Part shown: in pieces, positions 39,563-40,789 of the stretch
How the letters are laid out: each line of letters begins with the position of its first letter
Numbering within the stretch: position 1 is the stretch's first letter
Assembly: GCF_963921235.1 (NCBI RefSeq)
Contig: NC_086097.1
Span: 99,574,001-99,638,000, forward strand
Direction of reading: 5' to 3'
Length of the DNA stretch: 64,000 nucleotides
From: Mobula hypostoma
Taxonomy: Eukaryota
Notes under the pieces: model-generated
The model's database searches: none
Told to the model about the DNA's origin: nothing
Seen by the model: the letters and a program-made list of their open reading frames with translations, nothing else
Made by a program: the position numbers and the translations under genes

Positions 39563-40789
39563 GGGATTACCTGGTCTGTAAAATGATGGTGCGGGATTAC
39601 TGGATTTGTAAAACGATGGTGTGGAATTACCTGGTCTGTAAAATGATGGTGCGGAATTACCTGGTCTGTAAGATGATGGTGCGGAATTACCTGGTCTGTA
39701 AAATGATGGTGTGGGGTTACCTGGTCTGTAAAATGATGGTGGGAGATTACCTGGTTTGAAAGATGATGGTGCAGGATTACTTGTTTTGTAAAATGATGGT
39801 GCAGGATTACCTGGTCTGTAGGATGAATGTGGGGGATTACCTCGTCTGTAGGATGATGGTGGGGGAATTACTTGGTCTGTAAAATGATGATGGGGGAATT
39901 ACCTGGTCTGTAAAATGATGGTGTGGAATTACCTGGTCTGTAAAATGATGGTGGGGGGTTACTTGGTCTGTAGGATGATGGTGGGGATTACCTGGTCTGT
40001 AAGATGATGGTAGGGGATTACCTGGTCTGTAAGATGATGGTAGGGGATTACCTGCTCTGTAAAATGATGGTGTGGAATTACCTGGTCTGTAAAATGATGG
40101 TGGGAGATTAACTGGTCTGTAAAATGATGGTGTGGAATTACCTGGTCTGTAAAATGATGGTGGGGGATTATCTGGTCTGTAAAACGATGGTGGGGGATTA
40201 CCTGGTCTGTAAGACGATGGCGTGGAATTACCTGGTCTGTAAAATGATGGTGTGGAATTACCTGGTCTGTAAGATGATGGTAGGGGATTACCTGGTCTGT
40301 AAAACGATGGTGTGGAATTACCTGGTCTGTAGAATGATGGTGGGGGATTACTTGGTCTGTAAAACGATTGTGTGGGATTACCTGGTCTGTAAAATGATGG
40401 TGTGGGATTACCTGGTCTGTAAAATGATGGTGGGGGATTACCTGGTCTGTAAAATGATGGTGTGGGATTACCTGGTCTGTAAAACGATGGTGTGGAATTA
40501 CCTGGTCTGTAGGATGATGGTGTGGAATTACCTGGTCTGTAAAATCATGGTGGGGGATTACCTAGTCTGTAGAATGATGGTGGGGGATTACTTGGTCTGT
40601 AAAACGATTGTGTGGGATTACCTGGTCTGTAAAATGATGGTGTGGGATTACCTGGTCTGTAAAACGATGGTGTGGGATTACCTGGTCTGTAAAATGATGG
40701 TGTGGAATTACCTGGTCTGTAAAATCATGGTGGGGGATTACCTAGTCTGTAAAATGATGGTGTGGGATTACCTGGTCTGTAAAATGATG
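39563..40789. repeat. 30-bp minisatellite (~41 units) built from the exon 4/intron 4 junction
   Basis: Plus-strand unit gggattacctggtctgtaaaatgatggtgt; on the minus strand catcattttacagaccag|gtaatcccacac. The terminal unit overlaps the real exon end. Confidence 0.95.

What the first reader, a model, noticed from the sequence alone, without database searches (positions are those of the whole stretch)
39563..40789. A minisatellite made of ~41 tandem copies of a real exon-intron junction (splice-donor array)
Seen: on the transcript strand the 30-bp unit is the last 18 nt of PAK exon 4 (CATCATTTTACAGACCAG) plus the first 12 nt of intron 4 (GTAATCCCACAC). The pre-mRNA therefore carries about 40 extra CAG|GTAAT 5' splice sites directly after the true one. 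Reading through the first donor gives ACC AGG TAA, an in-frame stop, so use of any downstream donor would truncate the kinase before the HRD motif. Each unit also contains TTTTACAG and CAG/GT, resembling acceptor and recursive-splice sites. Inference: the array may act as a copy-number-dependent U1 decoy or poison-splicing (NMD) switch, or be suppressed by an unexplained proximal-donor preference. It may also have reshaped the exon end (TDIILQTR versus PAK6 TDIVSQVR).
Basis: partly seen in the sequence, partly recalled or inferred. Interest (0 to 1): 0.8.

Follow-up and report, generated by a model that had tools for sequence, protein, structure and literature searches.

The report
Splice-donor minisatellite in ray PAK6 intron
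In a devil ray's PAK6-type kinase gene, the end of one exon and its splice signal are copied 41 times into the next intron, yet the RNA seen in a close relative that carries the same repeat is spliced at the first, genuine copy, so this is likely a tolerated example of a repeat type already known from human and lancelet genes.

Summary
The array is real: 41 units of 30 bp (39562-40789, minus strand), each the last 18 nt of a coding exon plus the first 12 nt of its intron, in an intact group II PAK gene. 38 of 40 extra units keep GT; 28 are exact CAG|GTAAT. Any downstream donor would give a 531-residue truncation and an NMD target. It is no assembly artefact: DNA contigs of two related organisms carry it. 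RNA contigs of organism B (two runs, one study, depth about 7) join the next exon to the first donor only; own-species RNA did not reach this junction. Donor positions are no better conserved than the rest of the unit, another array in the same gene carries 63 better-matching donor motifs, and the exon end IILQTR is shared with other rays, so the 'reshaped exon' idea is unsupported. The anatomy is published: human F7, CBS, IFI6, LMNB2, PDGF minisatellites and amphioxus 'mirages', where upstream donors win. The scan's unchecked notes list several like arrays in sharks and chimaeras. A low-level leak cleared by NMD is not excluded. New member of a known kind; low interest.

The parts
39562..40789 (-). 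30-bp minisatellite, 41 units; unit = last 18 nt of coding exon 5 + first 12 nt of intron 5
   Evidence: TRF; unit table; per-position table
40760..40789 (-). Unit 1, holding the authentic donor (last exonic base 40772, CAG|GTAATC, phase 2)
   Evidence: used in RNA contigs X9 and X10 (one search read)
39562..40759 (-). 40 extra units (pseudo-donors): 38 keep GT, 15 CAG|GTAATC, 13 CAG|GTAATT; each preceded in frame by the TAA at 40770-40768
40772..40905 (-). Coding exon 5 (134 nt; kinase subdomains ending [12 protein letters not shown])
   Evidence: spliced to the exon upstream in own-species RNA contig X11 (534 nt skipped)
25168..25294 (-). Coding exon 6 (holds HRD); acceptor partner of the donor array across a 15,477-nt intron
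19624..61259 (-). Host gene: group II p21-activated kinase, PAK6-type, nine coding exons (61259-61190, 58338-58097, 54291-53602, 41895-41440, 40905-40772, 25294-25168, 22000-21875, 21078-20944, 19779-19624), open frame of 711 aa
   Evidence: translation identical to P0001, XP_062887991.1, 0 differences in 711 aa; best solved relative PAK6

Best explanation
This is a minisatellite that likely arose by tandem duplication of the 30 bp around an ancient splice donor and expanded into the intron, and the spliceosome likely takes the first, most upstream donor, which leaves the array as tolerated intron sequence. Shown: unit anatomy, intact reading frame through donor 1, the same intron position without any array in two paralogues, presence of the array in two related organisms, and donor-1 splicing in RNA contigs of one of them. 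Inferred: origin by slippage or unequal exchange followed by unit turnover; choice of donor 1 through exon definition across the 134-nt exon and first-available-site selection as in F7 (only donor 1 has the full exon directly upstream; all sites lack G at +5, so U1 occupancy of the copies is probably modest); rare use of a downstream donor would give a premature stop that NMD would clear, so selection against the array is weak.
For: RNA contigs X9 (1427 nt) and X10 (817 nt), depth about 7, run from exon 7 through exon 6 into 30 of 30 letters equal to window 40775-40804, the last 15 of which lie only in the true exon; no other junction on that acceptor among the 4 runs laid, of which 2 covered the exon. 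The DNA run X5 of the same sample as X10 holds the array: a contig from the exon to +12, 25 contigs laid with summed depth 103-112 on the unit against 4.3 outside, a distal-end contig whose loose end equals window 39533-39562 (30 of 30) and a unit-33-like variant (29 of 30). Organism C (about 4% different) also holds it (71 contigs laid). Donor 9-mer: 8 variant alleles over 9 positions against 20 over the other 21. Tandem repeats fill 7,375 of 41,636 bases of this gene, and the array at 44827-48027 has 86 donor-like sites, 63 of them CAG|GTGAGG. Two group II paralogues have the same intron and no array within 1.5 kb. Precedents: PMC1557585, PMC3087553.
Against: The junction was seen only in organism B, in 2 runs of one study, as low-depth contigs that drop rare forms; own-species RNA contigs (X11, X13) did not cover exon 6 or the donor. 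NMD would erase downstream-donor products from steady-state RNA, so their absence is weak. 13 copies match U1 better than the real site (8 of 9 against 7 of 9 by my simple count), the first 60 nt downstream, and for strong duplicated sites the intron-proximal one wins at separations of 45 nt or more (PMC3413131). In IFI6 and CBS two pseudo-sites are used besides the real one. The order of units in organism B is not known. The conservation test has little power because units are related by descent.
Confidence: 0.72

Rival explanations
1. Leaky donor array: donor 1 dominates but the nearest pseudo-donors take a real share of transcripts, which are destroyed by NMD, so the array lowers kinase output as an unselected side effect (a splicing or expression QTL), as reported for CBS and IFI6.
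For: All 38 downstream GT sites give a premature stop that meets the 55-nt rule; 15 are identical to the real 9-mer and 13 match U1 better; two pseudo-sites are used in IFI6 and CBS (PMC1557585 introduction); latent donors behind stop codons are activated under stress in human cells (PMC3510495 abstract); the region is less structured than shuffles (z +2.2), so the copies are not hidden by folding.
Against: No downstream junction in the 2 covering RNA runs; unit 2 is weakened to TAG|GT in this assembly; F7 copies stayed silent even when strengthened to a consensus value of 91.
Confidence: 0.2
2. Selected regulatory switch: the array is kept as a copy-number-dependent U1 decoy or poison-splicing element that tunes PAK6 dose by tissue or stress.
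For: The array persists in three related organisms up to about 4% apart; +2 to +4 (TAA) are invariant in 41 of 41 units.
Against: Six other positions of the unit are also invariant, and the donor window is unremarkable among 30 circular windows; two units lost the GT and six lost G at -1; the same pre-mRNA carries more and better donor motifs in another array; paralogues work without it; monomer number had no effect in F7.
Confidence: 0.04
3. Acceptor or recursive use: the AG dinucleotides in the units serve as 3' splice sites, so that the intron is partly removed stepwise (AG|GT regenerates the same donor and an identical mRNA) or short pseudo-exons of 5+30n nt are included.
For: CAG is present at the inner position in 37 of 40 and at the junction in 31 of 40 extra units; upstream pyrimidine content (0.67, 0.62) lies within the range of the gene's true acceptors (0.60-0.85).
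Against: The tracts are U-poor (0.31, 0.24 against 0.30-0.55 in true acceptors, 6 of 8 at 0.45 or more); no pseudo-exon in the RNA contigs; known recursive sites are mostly in far longer introns (recalled, no call). Recursive use would leave no trace in mRNA, so it could not be tested.
Confidence: 0.03
4. Assembly artefact or collapsed error.
For: None found.
Against: 31 distinct units among 41; independent DNA contigs of organisms B and C hold the units, and B has the same distal flank and an orthologous diverged unit.
Confidence: 0.01

Closest known systems
Human F7 intron 7 37-bp VNTR (Borensztajn et al. 2006, PMC1557585; read parts 1-4 of 6: abstract, introduction, results, start of discussion)
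   Same: First monomer spans the exon-intron boundary, so the donor is reiterated down the intron; only the most upstream site is seen used.
   Different: F7: 4 exonic + 33 intronic nt, 5-9 copies, tested by 50 minigenes. Here 18 exonic + 12 intronic nt, 41 copies, every downstream site behind an in-frame stop, and only contig-level RNA evidence.
Human CBS intron 13 (15-20 units), IFI6/6-16 intron 2 (25 pseudo-sites), LMNB2 (100 bp x 10-15) and PDGF intron 4 (81 bp x 16-18) minisatellites, as summarised in the introduction of PMC1557585 (primary papers not read)
   Same: Donor-spanning minisatellites with tens of copies; CBS has nearly the same unit length (31 bp, from the search term hit and recall).
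   Different: In CBS and IFI6 two proximal pseudo-sites are used as well; no such use was seen here, at low depth.
Amphioxus 'mirages' (Adh3, globins BflGb6 and BflGb9; PMC3087553, passages read)
   Same: Tandem duplications of exon-intron boundaries, 81-100% alike units, many with AG/GT signals, reported not to disturb regular splicing; proposed raw material for intron gain.
   Different: Here in a cartilaginous fish, donor side only, short unit, high copy number; length instability not tested.
Latent 5' splice sites behind in-frame stops / suppression of splicing (PMC3510495, abstract read)
   Same: Intronic donor-like sites preceded by an in-frame stop, normally unused.
   Different: Those are scattered single sites, not copies of the authentic donor; the F7 authors found the stop-codon rule did not explain their array.

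Membership tests
Exon-intron-boundary minisatellite (F7-type VNTR / amphioxus 'mirage') | Tandem array whose terminal unit spans a real exon-intron boundary | tested here: met
   Unit 1 = 40789-40760 across donor 40772; frame identical to a 711-aa RefSeq protein; junction seen in RNA
Exon-intron-boundary minisatellite (F7-type VNTR / amphioxus 'mirage') | Splice signal reiterated in the intron copies | tested here: met
   38 of 40 extra units keep GT; 15 identical 9-mers
Exon-intron-boundary minisatellite (F7-type VNTR / amphioxus 'mirage') | Regular mRNA still spliced at the authentic (most upstream) site | tested here: met
   X9 and X10 contigs of organism B, which carries the array; own species not covered; minor forms invisible
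Exon-intron-boundary minisatellite (F7-type VNTR / amphioxus 'mirage') | Variable unit number between alleles or individuals | not testable with these tools
   Only short-read contigs available; summed depth is no copy number
Exon-intron-boundary minisatellite (F7-type VNTR / amphioxus 'mirage') | Pseudo-sites are functional when the upstream one is mutated (shown for F7) | not testable with these tools
   Needs minigenes
Regulated poison-splicing (AS-NMD) switch | Alternative site introduces a premature stop that meets the NMD rule | tested here: met
   38 of 38 downstream GT donors give 531 aa, stop more than 55 nt before the last junction
Regulated poison-splicing (AS-NMD) switch | The unproductive isoform is detectably made | tested here: inconclusive
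   Not seen in 2 covering runs at depth about 7, without NMD block
Regulated poison-splicing (AS-NMD) switch | Purifying selection on the alternative site | tested here: not met
   8 alleles over 9 donor positions against 20 over 21 others; low power
Recursive splice site | Strong acceptor directly followed by a regenerated donor, with intermediates in nascent RNA | tested here: inconclusive
   AG|GT present in 31+ units but U-poor tracts; intermediates not testable
Group II PAK (PAK4/5/6) | N-terminal CRIB/PBD plus C-terminal kinase domain closest to PAK4/5/6, shared intron position | tested here: met
   PF00786 + PF00069 on P0001; best solved match PAK6, E 9.5e-27; same phase-2 intron in two paralogues. 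PAK6 orthology is inferred, no tree was built

The most novel reading that the evidence does not exclude
The 41-donor array, kept across at least three ray lineages, diverts a copy-number- and stress-dependent share of PAK6 transcripts into NMD and so works as a heritable, tunable dosage dial built from the gene's own splice donor.
Probability: 0.05. Interest if true: 0.7.

Novelty: new member of a known kind. Interest (0 to 1): 0.2.

Why it matters
As it stands it is one more, large, natural example that dozens of identical donors can sit right behind the real one without breaking a gene. It would serve as a test substrate for how the spliceosome chooses among identical 5' splice sites (first-site selection as in F7 against the intron-proximal bias seen for strong duplicated sites), with the twist that 13 copies match U1 better than the real site and all lie behind a stop codon. 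Only if unit number were shown to tune kinase output would it matter beyond that.

Tried and rejected
Own-species RNA-like runs X11 and X13 had no contig on exon 6; X11 spliced exon 4 to exon 5 but its contig ends at 40789 with no loose end at depth 2.6: no cover, not used as evidence either way. No run was on record as RNA; X9, X10 and X11 are taken as RNA because their contigs cross introns at GT-AG ends. Read data were laid only on the first 3 units, so allele length and unit order in other animals are open. Folding gave no structure that could hide the copies (z +2.2). No higher-order period stood out (mean mismatch 3.55-4.23 for lags 1-13). A coding role for the array was rejected: all six frames carry stops (5-34 each). 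'Reshaped exon end' rejected on orthologue sequences. PMC10078293 (passages) catalogues repeats linked to splicing but showed nothing on donor-spanning units in the passages seen; its supplements were not read. Searches for a prior description of this locus (PAK6/tandem repeat/elasmobranch/splice, top 10 of 37 listed; shark/minisatellite/intron/exon-intron boundary, 1 paper) showed none; the library lacks most subscription papers.

Full report
Observation. Tandem Repeats Finder reports a 30-bp array at 39562-40789, 40.9 copies, 87% matches, no indels. On the minus strand the 41 units each consist of 18 exon-like and 12 intron-like bases, and unit 1 straddles the end of an exon at 40772. Of the 40 extra units 38 keep GT at the junction register; 15 are CAG|GTAATC like the real site and 13 CAG|GTAATT; units 21 and 23 lost the GT. 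The exon-end 18-mer with up to 3 mismatches occurs 39 times in the window, all in the array, and a search of the own genome with 338 bp of it returned 5 matches, all at this array.

Host gene. Nine minus-strand exons between 61259 and 19624, joined at donor 40772, translate to 711 residues with 0 differences from P0001, the RefSeq protein XP_062887991.1 named 'PAK 4-like [Mobula hypostoma]'. The closest solved kinase is PAK6. A search of the genome with this exon gave 6 matches: itself, two group II paralogues ending TDIVTHTR and three group I genes, so this is probably the ray's PAK6-type gene (inference; no tree). Both group II paralogues have an intron at the same AG|GT position and no tandem repeat within about 1.5 kb: the junction is old and the array was copied from it, not the reverse. 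The exon end IILQTR is also in Hypanus, Hemitrygon, Pristis and Narcine, with IILHTR and IILRTR in skates and IISHIR and IISYTR in sharks, so comparison with mammalian PAK6 is the wrong yardstick and there is no sign that the array reshaped the exon. Whether those other rays carry the array could not be read.

Not an artefact. DNA contigs of organism B (run X5; 9 differing letters in 1,159 aligned) include one from the exons to intron position +12, 25 contigs laid in all with summed depth 103-112 on the unit against 4.3 outside, a contig whose loose end equals the window's distal flank 39533-39562 in 30 of 30 letters, and a variant unit equal to window 39799-39828 in 29 of 30 (one search read). 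Run X12 of organism C (16 differences in 375 and 20 in 531 bases) runs from the exon into unit 2 and has 71 contigs laid, summed depth 307-422 against 9-12.6. Summed contig depth is not a copy number, but both fit tens of copies. X1-X4 may be the source of the assembly and were not used.

Splicing. Four RNA-like runs were laid on exon 6; two covered it. In X9 and X10 (organism B, one study; X10 is from the same sample as DNA run X5) a single contig at depth about 7 covers 25166-25297, continues on one side into exon 7 and on the other into 30 letters identical to window 40775-40804. The last 15 of these lie upstream of the repeated 18 nt and exist only in the true exon, so the junction is donor 1. 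No junction from a downstream unit was listed. Own-species runs X11 and X13 did not cover exon 6; X11 shows the gene is transcribed and exon 4 spliced to exon 5 (534 nt skipped) but ends at 40789. Limits: contigs drop rare forms, depth is low, the runs are not on record as RNA, and NMD would remove downstream-donor products: all 38 would encode 531 residues with the stop more than 55 nt before the last junction.

Selection and background. Across the 41 units the donor 9-mer carries 8 variant alleles over 9 positions and the other 21 positions carry 20; TAA at +2 to +4 is invariant, but so are six other positions. The test is weak because units share ancestry, yet it shows neither protection nor purging of the donor. 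Tandem repeats fill 7,375 of the gene's 41,636 bases, and intron 3 holds an unrelated array (44827-48027) with 86 donor-like sites, 63 of them CAG|GTGAGG, which match the consensus better than the sites in question (8 of 9 against 7 of 9 by a simple count against a recalled consensus). Donor motifs in arrays are thus commonplace in this pre-mRNA; the only special feature here is adjacency to the real exon. The region folds less well than shuffles (z +2.2), so structure does not hide the copies. The acceptor-like AGs have pyrimidine content in the range of the true acceptors but are U-poor: inconclusive.

How it most likely works. A short duplication captured the donor; slippage or unequal exchange expanded it into the intron, the only direction the reading frame tolerates (inferred). 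The spliceosome defines the 134-nt exon and commits to the first donor (shown at contig level in organism B; mechanism inferred from F7). Rare errors would be removed by NMD (inferred). Against this, for strong duplicated sites the intron-proximal one is used almost wholly at separations of 45 nt or more (PMC3413131, passages), and 13 copies here match U1 better than the real site; none has G at +5, so occupancy may be low, but a hidden leak remains the main rival (0.2).

What is known. Borensztajn et al. (PMC1557585; parts 1-4 of 6 read) describe the F7 37-bp VNTR whose first unit spans the exon 7 boundary: only the most upstream site is used, the next is activated when it is mutated, copies strengthened to a consensus value of 91 do not compete, and adding or deleting monomers does not change the pattern. 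Their introduction lists IFI6 (25 pseudo-sites, two used), CBS (15-20 units, two used), LMNB2 and PDGF (authentic only). Amphioxus 'mirages' are the same anatomy and are reported not to disturb splicing (PMC3087553, passages). Latent donors behind stop codons are abundant and stress-activated in human cells (PMC3510495, abstract). The scan's own unchecked notes list donor arrays of 25-63 units in other sharks and chimaeras; I did not test them. I found no paper on this locus.

Verdict. Observation confirmed; new member of a known kind; interest 0.2. The most novel reading left open, a copy-number dial through NMD, has about 5% probability.

Noticed in passing
window 41541-41539 (minus), exon 41895-41440: The glycine-rich loop reads GEGSTC instead of GEGSTG. 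Among the 120 proteins listed, 118 have G and 2 (Mobula, Hypanus) have C; the second Mobula and the Hemitrygon proteins have C too. Own-species RNA contigs cover the codon without a difference. A stingray-lineage cysteine in the ATP-binding loop.
   Followed up: partly
window 44827-48027: 32-bp x 96 array in intron 3 whose transcript strand carries 63 CAG|GTGAGG and 6 CAG|GTGAGA donor-like sites, not next to an exon; the 14-bp array at 42102-43271 has 4 AAG|GTGAGT.
   Followed up: partly
window 23542-24833: A 29/30-bp x 44 array in the next intron shares the core CAGACCAG and a CATCCACAC-like stretch with the donor array's unit, but has no donor-like site at 7 of 9 or better; chance or a common seed is unknown.
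   Followed up: no
window 41227-41418: Weak 30/31-bp repeats in intron 4 just after the exon-4 donor; organism B lacks one 30-bp unit at 41351, a small length polymorphism.
   Followed up: no
L011:58-720: A 30-bp x 22 array near a group I PAK exon whose unit holds two CAG-GT motifs on the strand opposite to the gene; shows that such motifs turn up in arrays by chance.
   Followed up: no
window 39533-39562: The flank just beyond the last unit resembles a decayed unit (TCATCTTCTGAA against TCATTTTACAGA), either an old copy or the microhomology that seeded the duplication.
   Followed up: no
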